From NCBI GenBank assembly GCA_000004985.1, contig GG738918.1: 64,000 nt of DNA. One strand, 5' to 3'. The position numbers were made by a program, and so were the translations under genes. Shown in pieces: positions 33,633-64,000 of the stretch (its first letter is position 1; each line of letters opens with the position of its first letter). The notes under the pieces were generated by a model. That model worked only from the letters and a program-made list of their open reading frames with translations. It searched no databases and was not told the DNA's origin. The DNA is from Naegleria gruberi. Taxonomy: Eukaryota.

Positions 33633-36590
33633 TTAAAAAATAGATTTAAATTCATTAGTCTTGATGAATGATAGATCAGTAATTTCTGGATAACCAAAAG
33701 CTGTTGGTCCAACAGTTTTCAATCCTTTTGGAGTGTGGAATTTTGGAGTTCCTCCCAAAACTAGAACAGAAATTCTGAATCCATATCTGAGCTCTTCTGT
33801 TTGAATGGCCAAACCAGTTTGAGAATCGACTATGGAAATAATGTTTGGAACAATGGCAAGAGATTGAATACTTTCTTGAGGAATGGTTTCCAATGATGGG
33901 TCATAATCTTTGACAATGACAGCTCTTAAAAATTCATTTTGGAATTCCACAATACATATCTTTCCTTGATCCTTTCCTAATCCTGATATTACACATTTTC
34001 CAATATTGAATCCTGATGTTGTTTTTCTATTGACATCAGAAATTTTACCACTAAAGAAAAGATCTCCATTATTCGAGTTCAAAATAGTTTGAATTGGATC
34101 CAAACTTTGAGAATGAGCTTCTAAAATACCTTTACCAATCGACCACACACCAGAATAACTGTTGTGAACAGTAGATTGCATTAATTCCTTCTTACTGATA
34201 GGATTTAAAATGATACCTGACATGGAACCCATTTGAACTGCAATAGGACGAAGAATACTTTCCAAACCCTTGCACGGATTTCTAGGATTGACACTAGTGA
34301 TCAATACTTGATTATTCATATCATCCAATAGCATGGTAGGAACAGGTGAACAGCCATCAATAAAGTGAGTGACCATATCAAGTTCTGGATAAGCTCTTCC
34401 CATTCCATCACAATCAACAACTGGTAAACCACTAGTAGCTGCAATGAGGAGTGGTGTAATTGAGTTTGAACCACCAATTTCAATACAGAAAATTGCTTCA
34501 ATCTTCTTTTTTGTGAAATTGGACATGGACTCAATGGCTGGTAAGAATTCTTCAACAATACTCTTTTCTTGAATGACCAGAGGTGCTCCCATCATTGCAA
34601 CAGGCAAGACAAAGGCATCTTCTGCGATTGATTCAGGAGAGATGATCTTGATTTCCTTGCCGTGTGAAAGGAGACTTCTGGCAAGAACAGCAGATTGTTT
34701 TGGTGAACCACCACCTCCACTAGAAACAACTCCTGATCCAATTTCAATGCAGTCAATATCTGTCTTGGTTAAAATCCATTCCTTTCGATTATCCTTATCT
34801 GAAACTGAAATATTTGGTTGATATGATTTGATATTTACAATGGATTGATTTGTCTTTTCGTTACTGAATTGTTCCTTTCTTTCTTCTCTCTTTGAAGAAG
34901 TGAGAGGTTTTTCAATTAGAAATTCCAAATTATTGGAAATGGAATTAAAGTCCAAATTACCAACAGCCTTACACAAAAATCTACAACTATCACCTGGAAT
35001 ATAAGCAAGAGGAATGCATTCAAAGTCAACTATCTCAACACTTTCTGGTTTGGCTCCATTCTTAATGGCCTTTTCAGTGGCCTCCTTTTTGACCGTCTCA
35101 ATAACCTTCTCTCTGTTTCCACCACTAGCAGAAATGTTAATCACTGTATCAACTCTACCAGAAACATCACAAAGAGCTGCACCTACAGCATTGGCACATT
35201 GGTAGTGTTTTGGCTTGATGATTTTGCTTACACCCTCAAATTTTCTATTCTCATCAATGAGAGATGATCCACCTCCCACTAATAGAACAGGAACATTGGT
35301 AGAAGCAATTTTCACATGGTCAATTGCTTCCTCAACAATGGAATGAATCTTGTCGACAATTTGTGGTGCTCTCTTTCCCAATCTTTGAGTTGTTTGAGAA
35401 AGTAATTCTGGAGAAGCTCCCCATTCACAATTTTTGAGTAATCCAAGTGCTACAGCTGCATCAGTCGTTGTCACAGTGTTTCCACCATATGAAAGTGATT
35501 CAGTGAAAATATTAAATCCAACACTCTTTGGACCAATTTGAATACTTGAATTTTCCTCATTTTCATTGAAAGATACAATGGAGCCACCACCCATAGCCAC
35601 AGAATAAACATCTGGTACTCTAAAATTAGTTGGCACATTACCAATGCTGACATTATTATTCGAGAGTCTTGGAAATCCATTCACCAATACACCAACATCT
35701 GTTGTTAAGCCACCAATATCCACCACAATTGCATTCTCCACACCTGATAAGAAGGCTGCTCCTTTCATTGAATTTGTTGGACCTGATTGAATTGTGAAAA
35801 TTGGAAATTCAGTTACCAAATTAGGAGGAATTAAGGTACCATCATTTTGAGTCAAGAAGAATGGACAAGCATACTTTGATCGAATGGCTTCTTGAAATGC
35901 ATAACAAATTGATCTGGAAACTCCCTTTAAACAAGCATTCAAAATTGAAGCATTTTCACGTTGCATGAATCCCATCTCTGAAATCTCATTCGAACAAGTA
36001 ATTTTCAATTCTGAATCATGATTGAAAAATTCTCTAATCCAATCAGCTACTTGTTTCTCTTGTTCACTATTAATTGGTGAAAAGATACCTGAAATGACAA
36101 TATTCTTCAAATTCTTTTCCTTGAGTGATTGACACATTTGCTGCACTTGATCCTGATTGACTGGCAATATTTCTCTACCATCCACTTGATATCCACCATC
36201 AATTTTATAATAATCTCCCAAAACCAACTCTTTCAATCTCTCAGGAAATGATTCACACGGTGGCAATGAATTATTTGCAGAGGAGCCAAGTCTACACACA
36301 GCCACCTTTTCCAAATCAGGAGAGAAGGAAAGAATGGCATTCACAAAGTGTGTCGTTCCAATAATTACACACAATATCTTACCTTTCCTTTGTCCACTTA
36401 CTTGTTGATCATTCTTCATCATCATGACTTGATCAATTGCCTTCATGATGCCACTTGTGATATCAGGAGAAGTTTGTGTTTTAATTGAATGTTCCACGAT
36501 ATTTCCTGCCGAATAATTAATCAGGGCACAATCTGTTGTTGTGGAACCAACATCAATGCCAATAATAAAGAGAGGTGGTGATAAAGACAT
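33633..36590 (-). CDS. hydantoinase/oxoprolinase-family (Hydant_A_N/Hydantoinase_A) protein fused to a C-terminal DUF917 domain
   Basis: Probable start MSLSPPLFIIGIDVGSTTTDCALI at 36590 (ATPase-fold phosphate-1 motif). A second IVVDIGGLTTDVGV motif lies mid-protein. The C-terminal ~400 aa are a Gly-rich DUF917-like module (GSGVVSSGGGGSP…IEIGGSNSI…VVDCDGMGRAYPELDM). Confidence 0.6.
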   Translation of the reverse strand: MSLSPPLFIIGIDVGSTTTDCALINYSAGNIVEHSIKTQTSPDITSGIMKAIDQVMMMKNDQQVSGQRKGKILCVIIGTTHFVNAILSFSPDLEKVAVCRLGSSANNSLPPCESFPERLKELVLGDYYKIDGGYQVDGREILPVNQDQVQQMCQSLKEKNLKNIVISGIFSPINSEQEKQVADWIREFFNHDSELKITCSNEISEMGFMQRENASILNACLKGVSRSICYAFQEAIRSKYACPFFLTQNDGTLIPPNLVTEFPIFTIQSGPTNSMKGAAFLSGVENAIVVDIGGLTTDVGVLVNGFPRLSNNNVSIGNVPTNFRVPDVYSVAMGGGSIVSFNENEENSSIQIGPKSVGFNIFTESLSYGGNTVTTTDAAVALGLLKNCEWGASPELLSQTTQRLGKRAPQIVDKIHSIVEEAIDHVKIASTNVPVLLVGGGSSLIDENRKFEGVSKIIKPKHYQCANAVGAALCDVSGRVDTVINISASGGNREKVIETVKKEATEKAIKNGAKPESVEIVDFECIPLAYIPGDSCRFLCKAVGNLDFNSISNNLEFLIEKPLTSSKREERKEQFSNEKTNQSIVNIKSYQPNISVSDKDNRKEWILTKTDIDCIEIGSGVVSSGGGGSPKQSAVLARSLLSHGKEIKIISPESIAEDAFVLPVAMMGAPLVIQEKSIVEEFLPAIESMSNFTKKKIEAIFCIEIGGSNSITPLLIAATSGLPVVDCDGMGRAYPELDMVTHFIDGCSPVPTMLLDDMNNQVLITSVNPRNPCKGLESILRPIAVQMGSMSGIILNPISKKELMQSTVHNSYSGVWSIGKGILEAHSQSLDPIQTILNSNNGDLFFSGKISDVNRKTTSGFNIGKCVISGLGKDQGKICIVEFQNEFLRAVIVKDYDPSLETIPQESIQSLAIVPNIISIVDSQTGLAIQTEELRYGFRISVLVLGGTPKFHTPKGLKTVGPTAFGYPEITDLSFIKTNEFKSIF

Positions 36591-36825
36591 TTTTTCTATA
36601 TGATTATTAATATTGTGAAGATTAAAATTTAAATGATGAAGAGATAGAAGGCAAAGGAACAATTTTTTTCAATGATTGGCTGTGTGAAAGGATCCAGTAC
36701 GGAACGAGAAGATTGGGATATTGCTTTCCAATTTGAAACTGTAATCAAAAGATCAAGCTTCCGAAGAGACAAATTATCTTTTACAATTTATGAAAAAAGA
36801 TTTGAAAAAAATTCAACAAATGGTC

Positions 36826-54180: not shown

Positions 54181-54320
54181 CGACTCTAAGGTTTTGTTAA
54201 GAAACTATTTTAAAGAGCATTGAAATTCCAGACTTCCTTAGCTTTCCTCAAGTTAAAAACTTGGCGGAGACACATGCTGTGGCAACAAAAAAACACCTTA
54301 AAAACAACATTAGTACAAAG

Positions 54321-55325
54321 ATGGCTAAGAAGAAGAGTGCCACTGAACAAAATATTAGAGATAGAATCAATCCTAATGACCCTGACACTACGATTTCCTT
54401 CTCATTGTCTCAATTCCCGATTAATGACCTCCTCAACAATAATTCATTCATTGATCGTCATCCTGATGTACTCGACATGATCTTTTATGAACCTGGTATT
54501 ATTGATACATTGAAGATGTTCAATACATGTACTGGATTTGTCTTGACTATTAACAGCTTGAAAGAAGTAAAGATTGGTAATTGGCTCCAAAACTCTGTCA
54601 AGAAGAAGAGTAGCGAAAATGAGATGGATCAAATGCTTTTCTTTATCAAAGACTATAGTGAAACCCAAATTTTCAACATTCTATTGAAGAATATTGACGC
54701 TATTGAAGATAGCATGGATCCTCAAGAATATTTTGATGAAGTTGCCAGATGTTGCTCTGAGGTTATTGTTAAGAATGTTCAAACTGAGAAAGTCAAGCCT
54801 CAATTATTTTCCTCCTCTGTTGAATATTCCATCTATGCTGTCTCTGAATCCATCAATAGAAATGATGTATTAGATCATCGTGGAATCAACTTGACCTTCT
54901 CTGGTAATATTGGTATTGAAAAATCAACTGGTGGCTTCTTAAAGAAGGGTAAGATTAACATTTTGCTTGACTTGAGTGTTAAGGTTGTTGTTTACAACAA
55001 CTACATGTTCTCTAAACGTGGTTTAACTTGTGTATTGAATGGTATGCGTGATAGAGAAGGAAAACTTAGACAAAAAGTTGTTGATGAAGATATTGAAAGA
55101 TCCAAGAATGATGCTGTTAATGCTCTTGAAGGTGGTAAGAAGGATTATGCCAAGAAACCTTCCACATTTACTGGTAGTCTTTTGAACATGGTCAATGAAA
55201 AGGTCCAAGATAAGGTTGATGCTAGAATTGAAGAGGAACGTAATAAGGTTTTGGATCGTATTGGTGTTAGCTCAGAAAATTGGGACAATAACAAACCAAG
55301 CAATCCAAATGTTCGTCAATTTTAG
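54321..55325 (+). CDS. hypothetical protein (334 aa, K/E-rich)
   Basis: ATG at 54321 (MAKKKSATEQNIRDR); the ORF track's start at 54261 is a TTG. Continuous ORF to the TAG at 55323-55325, after which coding-like sequence stops abruptly. Confidence 0.45.
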   Translation: MAKKKSATEQNIRDRINPNDPDTTISFSLSQFPINDLLNNNSFIDRHPDVLDMIFYEPGIIDTLKMFNTCTGFVLTINSLKEVKIGNWLQNSVKKKSSENEMDQMLFFIKDYSETQIFNILLKNIDAIEDSMDPQEYFDEVARCCSEVIVKNVQTEKVKPQLFSSSVEYSIYAVSESINRNDVLDHRGINLTFSGNIGIEKSTGGFLKKGKINILLDLSVKVVVYNNYMFSKRGLTCVLNGMRDREGKLRQKVVDEDIERSKNDAVNALEGGKKDYAKKPSTFTGSLLNMVNEKVQDKVDARIEEERNKVLDRIGVSSENWDNNKPSNPNVRQF

Positions 55326-55590
55326 ATTCACACTATTCAATAAACTTGCAAAATATTAATAGGTGTTTGAGTTTACTCCGAATTGTTGATTTAATGAAAA
55401 TGTTTCACCCCAAGATACAATTTCAATTTCAAAACGTTCATCATAGACAATGTGGGTGATGTGAAATTTAATTAAAAACAGAAAAATCAAAATGTGTTAT
55501 AGACCCACACACATTCTAGAACTTACCTCGCTCACAAAAACTAAGTTTTAACCCAATCTTCAAAAAAATATTCAACATTCTACTACTAAA

Positions 55591-56090
55591 GGAGTGGTTT
55601 TACATCATGAAACCACCAAACTTTCACATCATCATCTCAACATGATCTATATAGTAGTAATAATAGTAATTTTTATTGGTGGATTATCATCATGAAATTG
55701 GAATTTATTTTTCATGATGGAAAATCATAAGTTGGTGTTCCAGCATCGGATCATTCACCAACATCATTATTGTTTTCCATTAATAATAATATTTGTAGAT
55801 ATTAATTTGTAGTAATATAATTTTGGTGAAATGTAAAAATTTTCACTAAATTCATCATCACTGCTGGATCTACTGAACAAGTTGGAAAACTGTCAATGTA
55901 GTATTGTTCGGAATGGTCAATAGTAGGTAAGAGAATTTTCTCTTATCAATTTTGGATATTTGATGCCACCAGAGTTGATTCATAGCCCAATTACAAATCA
56001 AACAGCAATAAAACAACAATTCATAATGTTTATTATGTTATTAAATGTATAATTTCGAGTCTTGTAGCATAATTTGTGAAAATAATGGAT
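55591..56090 (+). repeat. dispersed structured repeat, copy 3 (plus a partial internal re-duplication at ~56150..56275)
   Basis: Collinear with copy 1 except for the ~190-bp internal indel. The sub-segment …catcatcactgc(t/c)(g/a)gat…ttggaaaact(g/t)tcaat(g/c)tagtattgttc…atggtcaat is repeated again 60 bp downstream. Confidence 0.7.
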
Positions 56091-58183
56091 ATCTGATATT
56101 TTCATGTTTTTCATAATATCCACTGAAACATCACGAATAGCATGTCATTCAATACATTCTCTACCAGATAATTATCTTTTCAAACATCATCACTGCCAGA
56201 TTTATATGATAATTTGGAAAACTTTCAATCTAGTATTGTTCAACATGGTCAATTCCATCAGGTAAAATCACTTCCGAACATTTCCCTATTGGTGATAGGT
56301 ACTTTGGGGTTTGGTTAGGATTCAGAGTTGATTTATTTGGGTTATTTAAGAGATTACTTAGTGAAGATTGATATCATTGATTATATTTCTTATCATCTAT
56401 AAATGATGTAAATTTGATGTTTTCATTTCTTATATTGATAGATATTTAAAGGTCAGGTCAGTATCAACTTTTGAATGATGGACTTTGAGAAGTCAAATGT
56501 TTGGGACGTGAATCTACTCATTAAATTGAATAGGTATTGCTAATAAAGGAACATTTCATTGATTTATTGATTATAACGGTCAAATTGAGTTGAATGTAAG
56601 TGAATCTAATGTTGATTGATCGTGGATGGGTAGTTTCGCCACGAAGTGGTGCAACTACCAACCTTTGTAGATTGAATCAGGTTGATTTGCATGCAATATG
56701 AATAAGTAACATTATCAAGAGTGATTATTCACCAATTCAACGATCAACATTCAATAATCGGTTTGATTTCAATCAATAGCTTGCTCATCAAGCTTTGAAT
56801 CAAGATTCCAGTAATTAACGGCAGTCTATTTTTAAATTTAATCAAGACCATATATAGTAGCTTGACTTTTATGATCTGGAAACTATCTAGATGTGTTCTA
56901 TATTGAATAATCTATTTGAAAATGAGATGAATTAACTCTTCTATTGAGTTTTATTGGTATTGCAAGGTATTACGATTATAATAATCTACATAGAAATCAC
57001 TCTTGAAATATTAACTGAACTACAATGTATGAGAAACATAATGGTGGTGGAATAAATCAATAACTCGTTGAAATGACTGAGATGGAATGTAAACTATGGT
57101 CTATTTGTTATGTAATGGTGACTAGACAGTGTCAATTTCATCAAATTATTTCAAACTGATTACAATCAATAAAAAAAACCACTCTATACACCAAATATAC
57201 CATACAGAATGAGTTTCAATATTTAACATTGTGAACTGACTCTGTTGGATACCATCTCTATAAATATAACAATATGAAAAGTGTCAACATTCAATTACAC
57301 ATGCATGTTACAATGGAGAGTCATCATTATATCATCTAAATAGGTTGTATTTCAAGTTTCAGTCACATTGACTGTCTAGATATTGAGATGTGAATACTAA
57401 GGCTGATGAAATGGTACCTTCACTGATTATTGACATGAACATTACAATTGATCATATGATTCTTGTATAAGTATTTCATTATTCAGTAATTGTGATATGA
57501 TGGTAAAATTTAATTTTGGAATTAAGATTCTTCCTAATTGATTACCTTAGATGTTCCTTAGTTGAGTTGAAGATACAGAGCCACGAATATGAAACTTTGT
57601 CAGATTGTTCTCCTCATCAAGGGAAGTGTATTCATATTTGATACTTGTATGATATTTTGTAAAATGAATGAGATGGAGTATATTCTATATGTTGAATTAT
57701 GACAATTTGACAGATTGTTATTATTATCATACTGAATTCAACTCTAATAGACTTAAATTGATACCATATGTATAACAGTGTGATTAAATGTATCTGGTAA
57801 AGTTACATGATGGTTGGATGTACTTTCATTGAGATAGAGTGTACACTTGGATAAAATCACTATTGACATTGAACATTTACTGACTTAATAATTGAAAGTA
57901 ATACGAATTGGTTCCAAACAGTATACAGTGTATTTAGTTGATGTATACTATATGTGGTATGAATTCTAGATTGATTGTATGTATAATGAGCGAGTTGGAG
58001 CATAAGCTTTGATTTCATGTCAAAGTTCTATAGTATAGTGATCGAGTTGACATTTCGACATACTGAACCAATATTTATGAAATTGATACCATATGTTAAT
58101 TAGAGTGTCTATATATCATGATATCAATTTCAGTGAAAATGGAGTTGTTTCTGTACCTTCAGATTTCCAGCCATTCCCTTGAA

Positions 58184-58626
58184 GGGTTTGGGTTGGGTTT
58201 GGGTTTAGGGTTTGGGTTGGGTTTGGGTTTGGGTTTGGGTTTGGGTTTGGGTTTGGGTTTGGGTTTGGGTTTGGGTTTGGGTTTGGGTTTGGGTTTGGGT
58301 TTGGGTTTGGGGTTTGGTTGGGTTTGGGTTTGGGTTTGGGTTTGGGTTTGGGTTTGGGTTTGGGTTTGGGTTTGGGTTTGGGTTTGGGTTTGGGTTTGGG
58401 TTTGGGTTTGGGTTTGGGTTTGGGTTTGGGTTTGGGTTTGGGTTTGGGTTTGGGTTTGGGTTTGGGTTTGGGTTTGGGTTTGGGTTTGGGTTTGGGTTTG
58501 GGTTTGGGTTGGGTTTGGGTTTGGGTTTGGGTTTGGGTTTGGGTTTGGGTTTGGGTTTGGGTTTGGGTTTGGGTTTGGGTTTGGGTTTGGGTTTGGGCTC
58601 TGGGTTTGGGTTTGGGTTTGGGTTTG
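58184..58626 (+). repeat. interstitial telomere-type (GGGTTT)n array with occasional variants (GGGTTTAGGG, GGGTT, GGGCTCT)
   Basis: About 70 direct hexamer repeats, G-strand on +, ending directly at a 50-N gap. Confidence 0.9.
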
Positions 58627-58676
58627 NNNNNNNNNNNNNNNNNNNNNNNNNNNNNNNNNNNNNNNNNNNNNNNNNN
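58627..58676. other. assembly gap (50 N)
   Basis: Run of n characters. Confidence 1.
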
Positions 58677-58744
58677 ATTGGCAACTTGGCTGATTCACTT
58701 GTTCAGTTTACCACCATTTAGATATTAGAGATATTTCCAATTAG

Positions 58745-60014
58745 AATAAATGATATTTTCGCTAACTACTCATCATTTGCAACATTTTCATATGTGTTTT
58801 ATTGACTGGAGTGATGTTTTTGATATCTGGATTTTCACCTTTCCATCCTTAAAGTCAACCTTAAAATATCAACCTTTACCTTACTATATTATCAAATTAC
58901 ATTTTAAAACTCTAAAATTGTATTCTACAACATTATTTGAGTTGTTAAACATGATGGAAGTGTTTCATAGAGAGGTCATTTTCCAGATTTTCATTCATGA
59001 CCATAGTTGACTAGATGGTATGAAAAGGATGAAATCATGAATATGAAAGTTAAAATAAACTTTATATTCTATCTCTACACATCGAATGGAGCATGTACAT
59101 GTATAATTTGTTGATTGAAGTGATATATTTGATAGACTTGATCTTACTTGTCTTTCCTTCAGTCAACTTTGTAAAATCAACATTTACATTCCCATGGTAC
59201 CATTTCTGATTATTAGTACATGAAATTAAACTCTATATCATTATAGATCATCTACATTATGATGGTAAAGTTTCAATAGTGGTCTTTTTTCAAAATTTCC
59301 ACCTTTTCATCATAGTTGACCATGTGTGATTGAGGGAAGAAATCTCTAAATATGAAAGTCAAAATAAATTTGATATTCGATGTTTACTAATCAAATGAAA
59401 CATTTTCATGGCAGGATTTAATATGTTTTGATGAGAAACTCAAAAGTTATAGTTGACCTATTTTACCTCACATCTTACCTTTTCACTCAATACTTTTATA
59501 TCTACAGACTTGAACTTTTGAAATTTCATATGAAAGTGATTATGAATGTTGTTAATGATGATATTTACTATATAATCTCATTAAACGATTTTGAAATTAT
59601 CATTCTTCCTATGGTTTCATTTTAACAATTTTAATCTGACATTATTTACAAAGTTAATATTTTATAAATTGAAAAACTAAATATACTACATTGTTCTACT
59701 CATCATTTACAATCGAATGATATAAAATTTAATGATATTTGAATAAGTTTATAATTTTGGGCTAGGGTTTGAACGTTGGGTTTAGAAGATTTCTATTTTT
59801 AATTCTGGGTTTGGGTTGGTGTTTATTGGGTCAATTTTATACATTTTCATACAATATATTGATGTTGAAATGTACCCTTTGATGTTTCTGGATGGGTAGC
59901 ATGATTTAGTGATGATTCCGACAATAAAAATCATATATTGTTCATATAATTATCAAGATATTGTATAATTTATTAAATATCAAGTGGGTAATATTGAATA
60001 TTCTCTATAAGAGC
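58745..60014 (+). repeat. subtelomeric tandem satellite, unit ~650 bp (one diverged unit 58745..59085, one full unit 59086..59750, then degenerate telomere-like junction 59755..59830 and 185 bp unique)
   Basis: 59086..59750 is about 88-90% identical to 62778..63440, including the paired small ORFs 59428..59625 and 63124..63354. The unit boundary is …ctactcatcatttacaatcgaatg|gagcat…. Confidence 0.8.
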
Positions 60015-62777
60015 NNNNNNNNNNNNNNNNNNNNNNNNNNNNNNNNNNNNNNNNNNNNNNNNNNNNNNNNNNNNNNNNNNNNNNNNNNNNNNNNNNNNNN
60101 NNNNNNNNNNNNNNNNNNNNNNNNNNNNNNNNNNNNNNNNNNNNNNNNNNNNNNNNNNNNNNNNNNNNNNNNNNNNNNNNNNNNNNNNNNNNNNNNNNNN
60201 NNNNNNNNNNNNNNNNNNNNNNNNNNNNNNNNNNNNNNNNNNNNNNNNNNNNNNNNNNNNNNNNNNNNNNNNNNNNNNNNNNNNNNNNNNNNNNNNNNNN
60301 NNNNNNNNNNNNNNNNNNNNNNNNNNNNNNNNNNNNNNNNNNNNNNNNNNNNNNNNNNNNNNNNNNNNNNNNNNNNNNNNNNNNNNNNNNNNNNNNNNNN
60401 NNNNNNNNNNNNNNNNNNNNNNNNNNNNNNNNNNNNNNNNNNNNNNNNNNNNNNNNNNNNNNNNNNNNNNNNNNNNNNNNNNNNNNNNNNNNNNNNNNNN
60501 NNNNNNNNNNNNNNNNNNNNNNNNNNNNNNNNNNNNNNNNNNNNNNNNNNNNNNNNNNNNNNNNNNNNNNNNNNNNNNNNNNNNNNNNNNNNNNNNNNNN
60601 NNNNNNNNNNNNNNNNNNNNNNNNNNNNNNNNNNNNNNNNNNNNNNNNNNNNNNNNNNNNNNNNNNNNNNNNNNNNNNNNNNNNNNNNNNNNNNNNNNNN
60701 NNNNNNNNNNNNNNNNNNNNNNNNNNNNNNNNNNNNNNNNNNNNNNNNNNNNNNNNNNNNNNNNNNNNNNNNNNNNNNNNNNNNNNNNNNNNNNNNNNNN
60801 NNNNNNNNNNNNNNNNNNNNNNNNNNNNNNNNNNNNNNNNNNNNNNNNNNNNNNNNNNNNNNNNNNNNNNNNNNNNNNNNNNNNNNNNNNNNNNNNNNNN
60901 NNNNNNNNNNNNNNNNNNNNNNNNNNNNNNNNNNNNNNNNNNNNNNNNNNNNNNNNNNNNNNNNNNNNNNNNNNNNNNNNNNNNNNNNNNNNNNNNNNNN
61001 NNNNNNNNNNNNNNNNNNNNNNNNNNNNNNNNNNNNNNNNNNNNNNNNNNNNNNNNNNNNNNNNNNNNNNNNNNNNNNNNNNNNNNNNNNNNNNNNNNNN
61101 NNNNNNNNNNNNNNNNNNNNNNNNNNNNNNNNNNNNNNNNNNNNNNNNNNNNNNNNNNNNNNNNNNNNNNNNNNNNNNNNNNNNNNNNNNNNNNNNNNNN
61201 NNNNNNNNNNNNNNNNNNNNNNNNNNNNNNNNNNNNNNNNNNNNNNNNNNNNNNNNNNNNNNNNNNNNNNNNNNNNNNNNNNNNNNNNNNNNNNNNNNNN
61301 NNNNNNNNNNNNNNNNNNNNNNNNNNNNNNNNNNNNNNNNNNNNNNNNNNNNNNNNNNNNNNNNNNNNNNNNNNNNNNNNNNNNNNNNNNNNNNNNNNNN
61401 NNNNNNNNNNNNNNNNNNNNNNNNNNNNNNNNNNNNNNNNNNNNNNNNNNNNNNNNNNNNNNNNNNNNNNNNNNNNNNNNNNNNNNNNNNNNNNNNNNNN
61501 NNNNNNNNNNNNNNNNNNNNNNNNNNNNNNNNNNNNNNNNNNNNNNNNNNNNNNNNNNNNNNNNNNNNNNNNNNNNNNNNNNNNNNNNNNNNNNNNNNNN
61601 NNNNNNNNNNNNNNNNNNNNNNNNNNNNNNNNNNNNNNNNNNNNNNNNNNNNNNNNNNNNNNNNNNNNNNNNNNNNNNNNNNNNNNNNNNNNNNNNNNNN
61701 NNNNNNNNNNNNNNNNNNNNNNNNNNNNNNNNNNNNNNNNNNNNNNNNNNNNNNNNNNNNNNNNNNNNNNNNNNNNNNNNNNNNNNNNNNNNNNNNNNNN
61801 NNNNNNNNNNNNNNNNNNNNNNNNNNNNNNNNNNNNNNNNNNNNNNNNNNNNNNNNNNNNNNNNNNNNNNNNNNNNNNNNNNNNNNNNNNNNNNNNNNNN
61901 NNNNNNNNNNNNNNNNNNNNNNNNNNNNNNNNNNNNNNNNNNNNNNNNNNNNNNNNNNNNNNNNNNNNNNNNNNNNNNNNNNNNNNNNNNNNNNNNNNNN
62001 NNNNNNNNNNNNNNNNNNNNNNNNNNNNNNNNNNNNNNNNNNNNNNNNNNNNNNNNNNNNNNNNNNNNNNNNNNNNNNNNNNNNNNNNNNNNNNNNNNNN
62101 NNNNNNNNNNNNNNNNNNNNNNNNNNNNNNNNNNNNNNNNNNNNNNNNNNNNNNNNNNNNNNNNNNNNNNNNNNNNNNNNNNNNNNNNNNNNNNNNNNNN
62201 NNNNNNNNNNNNNNNNNNNNNNNNNNNNNNNNNNNNNNNNNNNNNNNNNNNNNNNNNNNNNNNNNNNNNNNNNNNNNNNNNNNNNNNNNNNNNNNNNNNN
62301 NNNNNNNNNNNNNNNNNNNNNNNNNNNNNNNNNNNNNNNNNNNNNNNNNNNNNNNNNNNNNNNNNNNNNNNNNNNNNNNNNNNNNNNNNNNNNNNNNNNN
62401 NNNNNNNNNNNNNNNNNNNNNNNNNNNNNNNNNNNNNNNNNNNNNNNNNNNNNNNNNNNNNNNNNNNNNNNNNNNNNNNNNNNNNNNNNNNNNNNNNNNN
62501 NNNNNNNNNNNNNNNNNNNNNNNNNNNNNNNNNNNNNNNNNNNNNNNNNNNNNNNNNNNNNNNNNNNNNNNNNNNNNNNNNNNNNNNNNNNNNNNNNNNN
62601 NNNNNNNNNNNNNNNNNNNNNNNNNNNNNNNNNNNNNNNNNNNNNNNNNNNNNNNNNNNNNNNNNNNNNNNNNNNNNNNNNNNNNNNNNNNNNNNNNNNN
62701 NNNNNNNNNNNNNNNNNNNNNNNNNNNNNNNNNNNNNNNNNNNNNNNNNNNNNNNNNNNNNNNNNNNNNNNNNNNNN
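60015..62777. other. assembly gap (2763 N)
   Basis: Run of n characters. It is flanked on both sides by copies of the same satellite unit, so it probably hides about four more units. Confidence 1.
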
Positions 62778-63440
62778 ATGGAGCATTTTCATATGTAATT
62801 TATTGATTGAAGTGATATATTTGATAGAGTTGGTCTGACTTGTCTTTCATTAAAGTCAACTTTGTAAAATCAACATTTACATTCCCATGGTACCATTTCT
62901 GATTCTTATGATATGAAATTGAATTGTACATCATTATAGACCATCTACATCATGATGGTAAAGTTTCAATAGGTGGTCCTTTTTCAAGATTTCCACCTTT
63001 TCATACAAGTTGACCATATGTGTGATTGAGGGAAGAAATCTCTAAATATGAAAGTCAAAATAAATTTGATATTCGATTTTTACTAATCAAATGGAACATT
63101 TTCATGTCAGGATTTAATATGTTTTGATGAGAAACTCAAAAGTTATTGTTGACCTATTGTACCTCACAACTTCCCTTTTCACTCAATACTTTTATATCTA
63201 CAGACTTGAACTTTTGAAATTTGATATGAAAGTGATTATAAATGTTGTTAATGATGATATATACTATATAATCTCACTAAAGGATTTTGAAATTATCATT
63301 CTTCCTATGGTTTCATTTTACAAATTTTTAATCTTACATTATTTACAAAGTTAATATTTTATAAATTGAAAAACTAAATATAATACATTGTTCTACTCAT
63401 CATTTACAATCGAATGATATAACAATCAATAAATTGGCCT
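62778..63440 (+). repeat. subtelomeric tandem satellite, terminal unit, abutting the telomere through a ggcctagggtttgaac…tgggtctgg junction
   Basis: Collinear with 59086..59750. Confidence 0.8.
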
Positions 63441-63481
63441 AGGGTTTGAACTTTGAAACATTGGGTCTGGACTTAAATATT

Positions 63482-64000
63482 GGGTTTGGGTTTGGGTTTG
63501 GGTTTGGGTTTGGGTTTGGGTTTGGGTTTGGGTTTGGGTTTGGGTTTGGGTTTGGGTTTGGGTTTGGGTTTGGGTTTGGGTTTGGGTTTGGGTTTGGGTT
63601 TGGGTTTGGGTTTGGGTTTGGGTTTGGGTTTGGGTTTGGGTTTGGGTTTGGGTTTGGGTTTGGGTTTGGGTTTGGGTTTGGGTTTGGGTTTGGGTTTGGG
63701 TTTGGGTTGGGGTTTGGGTTTGGGTTTGGGTTTGGGTTTGGGTTTGGGTTTGGGTTTGGGTTTGGGTTTGGGTTTGGGTTTGGGTTTGGGTTTGGGTTTG
63801 GGTTTGGGTTTGGGTTTGGGTTTGGGTTTGGGTTTGGGTTTGGGTTTGGGTTTGGGTTTGGGTTTGGGTTTGGGTTTGGGTTTGGGTTTGGGTTTGGGTT
63901 TGGGTTTGGGTTTGGTTTGGGGTTGGTTGGTTTTAGCTTTTGGTTTGGGTTTGGGTTTGGGTTTGGCTTTGGGTTTGGGTTTGGGTTGGGTTTGGGTTTG
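63482..64000 (+). repeat. terminal telomere array (GGGTTT)n, G-rich strand 5'→3' toward the window end (chromosome right end)
   Basis: More than 80 near-perfect hexamer repeats run to the last base. Variants appear only in the final 100 bp (GGTTTGGGGTTGGTTGG, GGCTTT). Confidence 0.9.

What the first reader, a model, noticed from the sequence alone, without database searches (positions are those of the whole stretch)
58745..63481. ~650-bp subtelomeric tandem satellite with a fossil telomere junction inside the array
Units at 59086..59750 and 62778..63440 are ~90% identical, and 58745..59085 is a more diverged third unit. The 2763-N gap between copies probably hides ~4 more units. The unit that precedes the gap ends in the same ggc(c/t)agggtttgaac… junction plus ~70 bp of degenerate telomere repeat (59755..59830) that the terminal unit uses to join the real telomere. 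This implies the array grew by duplicating a terminal segment including its telomere junction, through break-induced replication or unequal exchange at the end. The embedded 65-76 aa ORFs are conserved between units, but they are AT-rich and have no start context, so they are probably non-coding.
Basis: seen in the sequence. Interest (0 to 1): 0.55.

Follow-up and report, generated by a model that had tools for sequence, protein, structure and literature searches.

The report
Naegleria chromosome end with old telomere scar
This is the non-coding tip of a Naegleria gruberi chromosome, where a roughly 0.75-kb block next to the telomere occurs twice and the inner copy keeps a few decayed telomere repeats, which is an ordinary kind of chromosome-end rearrangement and not a 650-bp satellite.

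Summary
The window is the end of a Naegleria gruberi scaffold. Its TTTGGG arrays match the candidate telomere already published for this species.

**Confirmed**
- 59086-59832 and 62778-63481 are two copies of one block: 88% identical with gaps, 93% counting substitutions only.
- 58746-59053 is a ~70% relative of the first 310 bp only.
- The inner copy ends in the same CTAGGGTTTGAAC junction, followed by about four decayed telomere repeats.

**Not supported**
- There is no 650-bp satellite. The only tandem period is ~310 bp (A''-A'-A, 60-70% alike). B is mostly unrelated to A.
- The "unit start" at 62778 is simply the first base after the gap.
- The 184 bp after the inner junction are not a unit, so the gap cannot hold four more head-to-tail copies.

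**New evidence**
- One metagenome contig, L001, comes from an unnamed organism whose non-coding DNA is 83-91% identical, so I take it to be a close relative. It carries the same block at the same place.
- L001 runs straight through the point where the scaffold has a 443-bp telomere array (58184-58626). After the same junction it continues into a third, unrelated sequence.

The junction is therefore an old chromosome terminus or breakpoint. The 58184 array is probably an alternative healed end. This kind of structure is known elsewhere, so interest is modest.

The parts
57959..58183 (+). ORF-free subtelomeric DNA that is colinear with the environmental relative L001. L001's counterpart of the last ~45 bp belongs to the most degenerate 310-bp unit (A'').
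   Evidence: L001rc 1-227 matches window 57959-58182 at 86.8% (E 2e-63). Homology stops at 58182/58183. L001rc 184-417 matches the A profile weakly (E 4e-4).
58184..58626 (+). Internal TTTGGG telomere array of about 74 repeats, G-strand pointing outward. It abuts unique DNA without the CTAGGGTTTGAAC junction. I read it as an alternative, healed chromosome end that was assembled in line (inference).
   Evidence: period 6, 74.2 copies, 96% matches. L001 has no array at this point and continues for ~111 bp into the next contig's sequence.
58627..58676 (.). 50-N assembly gap. In L001 about 111 bp separate the two flanks.
58677..58745 (+). 'pre' segment, the tail of the degenerate unit A''.
   Evidence: Window 58677 aligns to about L001rc 339. 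It has no significant similarity to the other units on its own.
58746..59053 (+). Unit A', a 310-bp unit ~70% identical to A.
   Evidence: z=36-40; E 7e-78.
59055..59363 (+). Unit A, proximal copy.
   Evidence: (E 6e-85) and the alignments.
59364..59679 (+). Segment B, proximal copy. It shares only a ~48-bp head motif with A and is the best conserved part (~95% among the three copies). It holds the 65-aa ORF 59428-59625, which is not coding.
   Evidence: ORF.
59680..59759 (+). C, a head-like stub of a possible further unit (resemblance to the A' head seen by eye), cut off at the junction. The proximal copy has a private 20-bp insertion at 59736-59755.
   Evidence: Offset-930 motif match and the three-way alignment. 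Similarity to the unit head is only by eye or weak (E 7.6).
59760..59832 (+). Interstitial telomere-type junction: GGCTAGGGTTTGAAC, then GGGTTT motifs with spacers, then about four decayed TTTGGG repeats (GGGTTTGGGTTGGTGTTTATTGGGTC).
59833..60014 (+). 'post' segment, unrelated to any unit, to L001's post-junction DNA, or to the rest of the window. It contains an imperfect 27-nt inverted repeat.
   Evidence: (z=1.3).
60015..62777 (.). 2763-N assembly gap, content unknown. It cannot begin with another A/B/C unit.
62778..63059 (+). Unit A, distal copy. Its left end is cut by the contig edge.
   Evidence: A profile positions 31-311.
63060..63376 (+). Segment B, distal copy, with the 76-aa ORF 63124-63354.
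63377..63438 (+). C stub, distal copy.
63439..63481 (+). Live subtelomere-telomere junction: CTAGGGTTTGAAC plus two ~19-bp GGGTYT-headed repeats.
   Evidence: (period 19, 2.4 copies at 63442-63489).
63482..64000 (+). Terminal TTTGGG telomere array that runs to the window end. The irregular stretch at about 63914-63946 looks like low-quality read ends.

Best explanation
The region is the non-coding subtelomere of a Naegleria gruberi chromosome. It is passive structural DNA shaped by breakage, telomere addition and terminal duplication.

**Anatomy**
- A short, old, degenerate tandem run of ~310-bp units (A''-A'-A).
- A 318-bp segment B that shares only a 48-bp head with A.
- A ~60-80-bp stub C, which by eye resembles the head of a further unit.
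- A junction that cuts the array at the same point in every copy seen: CTAGGGTTTGAAC, then GGGTYT motifs about 19-21 bp apart, then TTTGGG repeats.

**Copies**
- The block A-B-C-junction occurs twice in the scaffold, with ~7% substitutions between copies.
- The outer copy carries the live telomere.
- The inner copy keeps only about four decayed repeats and continues into unrelated DNA.
- An environmental relative has the same block at the same chromosomal position. It too has decayed telomere repeats, followed by a third, unrelated continuation.

**Conclusions**
- Shown: the junction has served as a chromosome terminus and is a breakpoint of homology.
- Inferred: extra DNA was later joined beyond a short telomere. 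In strain NEG-M this happened through a terminal duplication whose unit is at least 0.93 kb and probably ~3.7 kb, not 650 bp. The mechanism would be break-induced replication, unequal exchange or end-to-end capture.
- Inferred: the 443-bp array at 58184 is a second, truncated and telomerase-healed version of the same arm, which the assembler placed in line.
For: **Organism**
- ORF 33633-36662 is 100% identical to the NCBI N. gruberi hydantoinase/oxoprolinase, which sits on a 222,118-bp contig.
- TTTGGG is the published candidate telomere of N. gruberi (PMC3622300).

**Copies and anatomy**
-.

**Junction**
- The motif occurs exactly twice in the window against an expectation of 0.03.
- The GGGTTT cluster is at 59765-59807.
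- L001 has 3 of its 4 GGGTTT within 95 bp at its own junction.
- In the three-way alignment all three copies have telomere-type repeats in the same columns, then diverge completely.
- The window's post-junction DNA and L001's are unrelated (z=1.3).

**Scaffold order is real, and the 58184 array is not ancestral**
- L001 is colinear with 57959-58182.
- It then continues for ~111 bp without any array into the sequence of 58677 onward.

**Non-coding**
- No protein hit for any frame at E<=10 among 5.8 billion proteins.
- No Rfam family and no tRNA.
- Substitution pattern of 8 non-synonymous to 3 synonymous.

**A larger repeat unit**
- The last 76 bp of L001, ~1070 bp beyond its junction, match window 57547-57622 at 79% (E 4e-13).
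- This fits a second copy of a block of about 3 kb starting there.
Against: - Only one external sequence was found. It is a 2.6-kb metagenome contig from an unnamed organism, and it could be chimeric.
- No other N. gruberi chromosome end could be examined, so whether the unit is shared among ends is unknown.
- The distal contig is joined to the rest only through a 2763-N gap. No read or mate-pair data were available, so tandem placement is not proven.
- The telomere-like tracts of the inner copy and of L001 are similarly short, about four repeats each. This could mean a short internal tract is ancestral and the live distal telomere was seeded on it, which is the reverse order of events.
- The three copies are nearly equidistant (92.9, 91.4 and 91.7%), so the order of duplication and lineage split is unresolved.
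Confidence: 0.55

Rival explanations
1. The outer contig (62778-64000) is not downstream of the inner copy. It is instead the other haplotype of the same end, or a paralogous end of another chromosome, drawn into the scaffold through repeat-confused mate pairs. In that case one version of the arm still ends at the ancestral junction, the other gained extra DNA beyond it, and there is no array or tandem duplication.
For: - The contig holds only ~700 bp of non-telomeric sequence and is linked only across N.
- At the junction, L001 sits at the proximal position yet shares the outer copy's indel state. It lacks the 20-bp insertion and has TTTGAAAYATTGGGTCTGG.
- The same scaffold already contains one in-line telomere array that looks like an alternative end.
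Against: - A sized gap of 2763 N, unlike the 50-N gap, suggests that mate pairs placed the contig ~3.7 kb beyond the inner copy. An allelic contig would give a negative gap. This is inference from how such assemblers work, not a check of the reads.
- Divergence of 7% plus indels is high for alleles in a genome whose overall heterozygosity I recall as below 1% (my recollection, not checked).
Confidence: 0.25
2. Seed-first order of events. A short internal telomere-like tract of about four repeats was an ordinary internal sequence of the ancestral subtelomere. The outer copy's live telomere arose when a duplicated copy broke there and telomerase extended the tract. Under this reading the tract is a healing hotspot and not a fossil of a telomere.
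For: - The inner copy and L001 carry tracts of similar short length at the same columns.
- The junction region is itself built of GGGTYT-headed 19-21-bp repeats.
- Telomere addition at a site with no junction motif seems to have happened 1.6 kb away, at 58184.
Against: - An ancestral internal tract predicts that the inner copy and L001 share the DNA beyond it. They do not (z=1.3), so a rearrangement at this exact site is still needed.
- The orientation and phase of the repeats are those of a terminal array.
Confidence: 0.15
3. One reading: a homogeneous ~650-bp subtelomeric satellite, with about four further units hidden in the 2763-N gap.
For: - Two ~90% identical copies are 3692 bp apart.
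- A partial third relative lies upstream.
Against: - No 650-bp periodicity exists, and A and B share only 48 bp.
- The unit boundary at 62778 is a contig edge.
- The 184 bp after the inner junction are not a unit.
- 3692 bp is not a whole multiple of 665 bp. It is close to five times 745 bp, but only if a unit followed the junction directly, and none does.
- L001 shows a single A''-A'-A-B-C run followed by other DNA.
Confidence: 0.05

Closest known systems
Interstitial telomere repeats at the boundaries of subtelomeric duplicated blocks, as in human subtelomeres (my own knowledge: Flint et al. 1997; Mefford and Trask 2002; Riethman et al. 2004)
   Same: - Short, degenerate telomere repeats in terminal orientation.
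- They sit exactly where homology between paralogous subtelomeric blocks ends.
- Different sequences lie beyond them in different copies.
   Different: - The organism is a heterolobosean amoeba with TTTGGG repeats.
- The blocks are tiny (0.75 to about 3.7 kb) and gene-free.
- Only two copies plus one relative have been seen.
Yeast X-(TG1-3)-Y'-(TG1-3)-Y'-telomere architecture (my own knowledge: Walmsley et al. 1984; Louis and Haber 1990-92)
   Same: - A terminal element is repeated with a telomere-repeat tract kept between copies.
- The arrangement is explained by recombination or break-induced replication at chromosome ends.
   Different: - Y' is a 5-7-kb element that encodes a helicase and is shared by many ends.
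- Here no frame encodes anything.
- Spread to other chromosome ends is untested and tandem order is unproven.
Chromosome healing by de novo telomere addition, as in ciliate macronuclear ends, Plasmodium and yeast terminal deletions (my own knowledge)
   Same: - At 58184, unique DNA switches abruptly to telomere repeats with no junction motif.
- A relative's sequence continues past that point.
   Different: - Both forms have not been shown on reads.
- Naegleria is not known to fragment chromosomes by programme.
- The array could still be interstitial.
Published candidate telomere TTTGGG of N. gruberi (PMC3622300)
   Same: The same hexamer, at a scaffold end and in the expected orientation.
   Different: The text of that paper that I searched gives only the repeat motif, and its supplementary table S5 is not held. 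I saw no subtelomere structure, junction motif or internal arrays described.

Membership tests
Tandem satellite DNA with a ~650-bp unit | Several head-to-tail copies with one consistent period | tested here: not met
   - Tandem Repeats Finder finds no long-period array.
- Self-offsets are 309, 618 and 930 bp, and only a short motif recurs at the longer ones.
- The A profile matches only 48 bp of B.
- The DNA after the inner junction is not a unit.
Tandem satellite DNA with a ~650-bp unit | Further copies fill the gap | not testable with these tools
   The gap is 2763 N. Reads or a long-read assembly are needed.
Short degenerate tandem repeat (~310 bp) | At least two adjacent homologous units | tested here: met
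   - A' and A are adjacent and ~70% identical.
- A'' is seen weakly in L001 (E 4e-4).
Interstitial telomeric sequence marking a former terminus | Telomere-type repeats in terminal orientation, more than chance | tested here: met
   - Three GGGTTT lie within 43 bp, against 15 in ~60 kb.
- They are on the same strand as the terminal array.
Interstitial telomeric sequence marking a former terminus | Located at the homologous position of a live telomere junction | tested here: met
   - CTAGGGTTTGAACNTTG occurs only at 59762 and 63439.
Interstitial telomeric sequence marking a former terminus | Homology between copies ends at the tract | tested here: met
   Three different continuations follow the tract in the inner copy, the outer copy and L001.
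Interstitial telomeric sequence marking a former terminus | The tract exists on native molecules and is not an assembly chimera | tested here: inconclusive
   An independent metagenome contig has a tract at the same place. NEG-M reads were not available.
Yeast Y'-type subtelomeric element | Conserved long element with a helicase ORF, present at many ends | tested here: not met
   - No protein similarity in any frame.
- The longest ORFs are 65-86 aa.
- Presence at other ends is not testable here.
De novo telomere addition (healed end) at 58184 | Abrupt switch from unique DNA to telomere repeats while the related sequence continues | tested here: met
   Homology with L001 ends at 58182/58183, and L001 continues for 111 bp into the sequence of 58677 onward.
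De novo telomere addition (healed end) at 58184 | Both the long and the truncated form exist in the same strain | not testable with these tools
   Needs reads. The 50-N gap and the short, gap-ridden distal contigs are only suggestive.
Ciliate macronuclear chromosome end (considered first because of the G3T3 repeat) | Ciliate genome and ciliate genetic code | tested here: not met
   - Long ORFs are intact in the standard code, up to 1799 aa.
- A protein is 100% identical to one from N. gruberi.

The most novel reading that the evidence does not exclude
In the polyploid laboratory strain NEG-M, one chromosome arm exists with different termini in different copies. One is truncated at 58184 and healed by telomerase, and one extends to 63482. 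A third, fossil terminus at 59760-59832 lies between them. If so, Naegleria chromosome ends undergo recurrent breakage and telomerase healing within a ~5-kb gene-free buffer, giving a heterogeneity of telomere addition sites reminiscent of ciliate macronuclear ends.
Probability: 0.3. Interest if true: 0.5.

Novelty: new member of a known kind. Interest (0 to 1): 0.3.

Why it matters
- My literature searches found no paper describing Naegleria subtelomeres. The only item was the candidate repeat TTTGGG.
- This end supplies a junction motif (CTAGGGTTTGAAC plus GGGTYT-spaced repeats), a gene-free buffer of about 8 kb after the last long ORF (which ends at 55325), and evidence that ends are rebuilt by telomere addition and terminal duplication.
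- In practice it flags an in-line telomere array and a doubtful gap in the reference scaffold. It also gives a probe (segment B) and a motif for finding and validating chromosome ends in new long-read Naegleria assemblies.
- The underlying biology, duplicated subtelomeric blocks with interstitial telomere remnants, is well known in yeast, humans and parasites.

Tried and rejected
- **Ciliate (Paramecium-type) macronuclear end**, suggested by the G3T3 repeat. Rejected because long ORFs are intact in the standard code and a protein is 100% identical to one from N. gruberi.
- **Other N. gruberi ends through exact-protein look-ups.** The collection holds no record for window proteins or for P0001.
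- **Paralogous copies through annotated proteins.** A 1600-aa concatenation of every open stretch of at least 25 aa, in all six frames of both contigs, gave no hit at E<=10. This also argues against a pseudogene or a transposon-protein origin.
- **RNA features.** Rfam with relaxed thresholds on 56000-64000 found nothing. There are no tRNAs in the window end or in L001.
- **Collection scans.**
  - The first metagenome pattern (25-mer from unit A) gave 0 hits.
  - The second (25-mer from B) gave the single contig L001.
  - Viral and prokaryotic genome collections gave 0 hits.
- **B as a diverged copy of A.** Only the 48-bp head is shared. The pairwise z of ~6 equals that of a control pair.
- **'post' (59833-60014) as the head of the next unit or as homologous to L001's continuation.** Neither holds.
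- **Coding potential of the ORF kept in all three copies of B.** Substitutions show no codon-position bias.
- **Full text of the N. gruberi genome paper.** It is not held, so statements about the assembler, gap conventions and heterozygosity rest on my memory.
Full report
**Where the window comes from.** The window is 33.5% G+C with no C-strand telomere arrays. It is densely packed with long ORFs that are intact in the standard genetic code. These ORFs encode eukaryotic signalling proteins: a PI4-kinase, a hybrid histidine kinase, an adenylate cyclase and EGF-repeat proteins. ORF 33633-36662 is 100% identical to the NCBI Naegleria gruberi hydantoinase/oxoprolinase, which lies on a 222,118-bp contig. 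The next best hits are N. lovaniensis (55%) and Willaertia (52%). The window is therefore the last 64 kb of an N. gruberi scaffold. TTTGGG has already been published as the candidate N. gruberi telomere (PMC3622300). Searches for Naegleria with 'subtelomer', 'telomeric repeat', 'telomere-to-telomere' and 'TTTGGG' found no description of its subtelomeres.

**Layout of the end.**
- ORF-free DNA runs from about 55330 to 58183.
- A GGGTTT array of ~74 repeats occupies 58184-58626.
- A 50-N gap follows.
- A 1338-bp contig occupies 58677-60014.
- A 2763-N gap follows.
- A contig starts at 62778. Its last 519 bp in the window (63482-64000) are the terminal GGGTTT array.

**Checking the observation.**
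- The two long copies are real. 59086-59824 matches 62778-63529 at 87.8% over 755 columns. MAFFT gives 89% column identity. Substitution-only identity is 92.9% over 648 ungapped columns.
- The 'third unit' is real but matches only the first 310 bp: 70% identity, z=36-40, nhmmer E 7e-78.
- The shared junction is real. CTAGGGTTTGAACNTTG occurs only at 59762 and 63439, against an expectation of 0.03.
- GGGTTT occurs 15 times in ~60 kb outside the arrays. Three of those are packed into 59765-59807.

**Anatomy.**
- Ungapped self-comparison gives offsets of 309, 618 and 930 bp. The longer ones involve only a ~45-60-bp motif.
- Profile searches define an A family: A' at 58746-59053, A at 59055-59363, and the distal A at 62778-63059.
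- They also define a separate B segment at 59364-59679 and 63060-63376. B shares only its first ~48 positions with A.
- C (59680-59759 and 63377-63438) is a short stub. By eye it resembles the head motif again, and the junction truncates it.
- The only tandem repeat is therefore a short, degenerate 310-bp one. The '650-bp unit' is A+B, and its left boundary at 62778 is just the first base after the N run.
- The 184 bp after the inner junction (59831-60014) resemble no unit. Head-to-tail copies therefore do not continue into the gap.
- No copy of any part exists elsewhere in the window.

**External evidence.**
- A scan of the metagenome collection with a 25-mer from B found one contig, VFQN01031297.1 (L001, 2627 bp). 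Identity of 83-91% to this non-coding DNA implies a close Naegleria relative.
- Read on its minus strand, L001 is colinear with window 57959-58182 at 86.8%.
- It then continues without any telomere array for ~111 bp into the sequence that starts the next window contig at 58677.
- It runs on through A''-A'-A-B-C to the same junction. It is 82.9% identical to 58728-59792 and 90.7% identical to 62778-63501.
- After the junction it has its own decayed telomere-type repeats, GGTTCAAAGGTTTGGGTTTGGTTAACC ... AAAAGGGTTTGGTTATCG. Three of its four GGGTTT lie within 95 bp there.
- About 1070 bp follow that are unrelated to anything in the window, including the window's own post-junction DNA (z=1.3).
- Its last 76 bp match window 57547-57622 at 79% (E 4e-13). 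That window segment lies ~560 bp upstream of the internal array.

**What follows from L001.**
1. The order contig 1 then contig 2 in the scaffold is genuine, not a mis-join.
2. The 443-bp array at 58184 sits exactly at a break of homology, lacks the junction motif, and is absent from the relative.
   - The simplest reading is a truncated, telomerase-healed version of the same arm that the assembler laid in line.
   - The minimal 50-N gap would then reflect a negative gap estimate. This last step is inference from my recollection of how such assemblers work.
   - A strain-specific interstitial array is not excluded.
3. Three copies share the same truncated unit, the same junction and telomere-type repeats in the same alignment columns. 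They continue in three different ways: unrelated DNA, the live telomere, and other unrelated DNA.
   - The junction is therefore a former or reused chromosome terminus and a rearrangement breakpoint.
4. The 76-bp match at the end of L001 suggests that the repeated segment is a long block of about 3 kb in L001, with the junction tract at its end.
   - The 3692-bp spacing in the window fits one such period.
   - This would be a Y'-like arrangement in outline only.

**Order of events.**
- The three copies are almost equidistant: proximal-distal 92.9%, proximal-L001 91.4%, distal-L001 91.7%.
- At the junction, L001 and the distal copy share indel states. The proximal copy has a private 20-bp insertion (59736-59755) and a deletion.
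- The data therefore cannot settle three questions:
  - whether the telomere came first and DNA was later added beyond it;
  - whether a short internal tract seeded the present telomere;
  - whether the distal contig is truly downstream, or is an allelic or paralogous end.
- I weigh these at about 0.55, 0.15 and 0.25, and the original satellite model at 0.05.

**Function.**
- No frame of either contig resembles any of 5.8 billion proteins.
- No Rfam family or tRNA is present.
- The ORF kept in all three B copies shows 8 non-synonymous and 3 synonymous differences, spread 4/2/5 over the codon positions.
- The region is non-coding structural DNA. Why B is better conserved (~95%) than A (88-90%) is unexplained.

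**Comparison with known systems.**
- In behaviour, the structure resembles interstitial telomere repeats at the boundaries of human subtelomeric blocks, and the TG1-3 tracts between yeast X and Y' elements.
- The 58184 site resembles chromosome healing.
- It is not a Y' element, because it has no ORF and its spread to other ends is unknown.
- It is not a satellite in the sense claimed.
- It counts as a new member of a known kind in an organism whose chromosome ends are undescribed.

**Limits.**
- Only one external contig was found.
- No reads were available.
- No access to other N. gruberi scaffold ends was possible.
- The genome paper is not held.

Noticed in passing
window 58184-58626: A near-perfect 443-bp TTTGGG array lies inside the scaffold, followed by 50 N. 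It starts exactly where homology with the relative L001 breaks, and it has no junction motif. It is probably an alternative healed end assembled in line, so the reference scaffold is suspect here.
   Followed up: partly
window 56296-56345: Another telomere-like patch: GGGGTTTGGTTAGG, then 24 nt, then TTTGGGTTA. It sits just after a pair of 84-bp repeats 332 bp apart (55838-55921 and 56170-56253, 75% identical, E 3e-12). It may be a still older fossil junction.
   Followed up: no
window 57547-57622 and L001 1-76 (minus strand): A 76-bp match at 79% identity (E 4e-13) links DNA ~560 bp upstream of the internal array with the far end of L001, ~1070 bp beyond L001's junction. This hints that the duplicated block is about 3 kb long.
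   Followed up: partly
window 55330-58183: About 2.9 kb without any ORF longer than 54 aa separate the last long ORF (54261-55325) from the first telomere array. Counting to the distal telomere, the gene-free buffer is about 8 kb.
   Followed up: no
window 59364-59679 and 63060-63376; L001 1275-1590: Segment B is markedly better conserved among the three copies (~95%) than the neighbouring A (88-90%). It keeps a 65-84-aa ORF open in all three, yet the substitutions look neutral. The reason for the conservation is unknown.
   Followed up: partly
window 59849-59875 and 59940-59966: An imperfect 27-nt inverted repeat (78% complementary, 64 nt apart) lies in the unrelated DNA just beyond the inner junction. 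BLAST also shows 59834-59978 as weakly self-complementary.
   Followed up: no
window 58595-58601 and 63914-63946: Irregular repeats (GGGCTCT; GGTTTGGGGTTGGTTGGTTTTAGCTTTTGG) lie near contig or window ends inside the telomere arrays. They look like low-quality read tails, so the array lengths of 443 bp and 519 bp or more are minima.
   Followed up: no
L001 about 1110-1135 (L001rc 1493-1518): A short G+C-rich stretch (CCTGGCGCCGGACG) lies between two telomere-like patches in otherwise 30% G+C DNA. It may be filler from a joining event.
   Followed up: no
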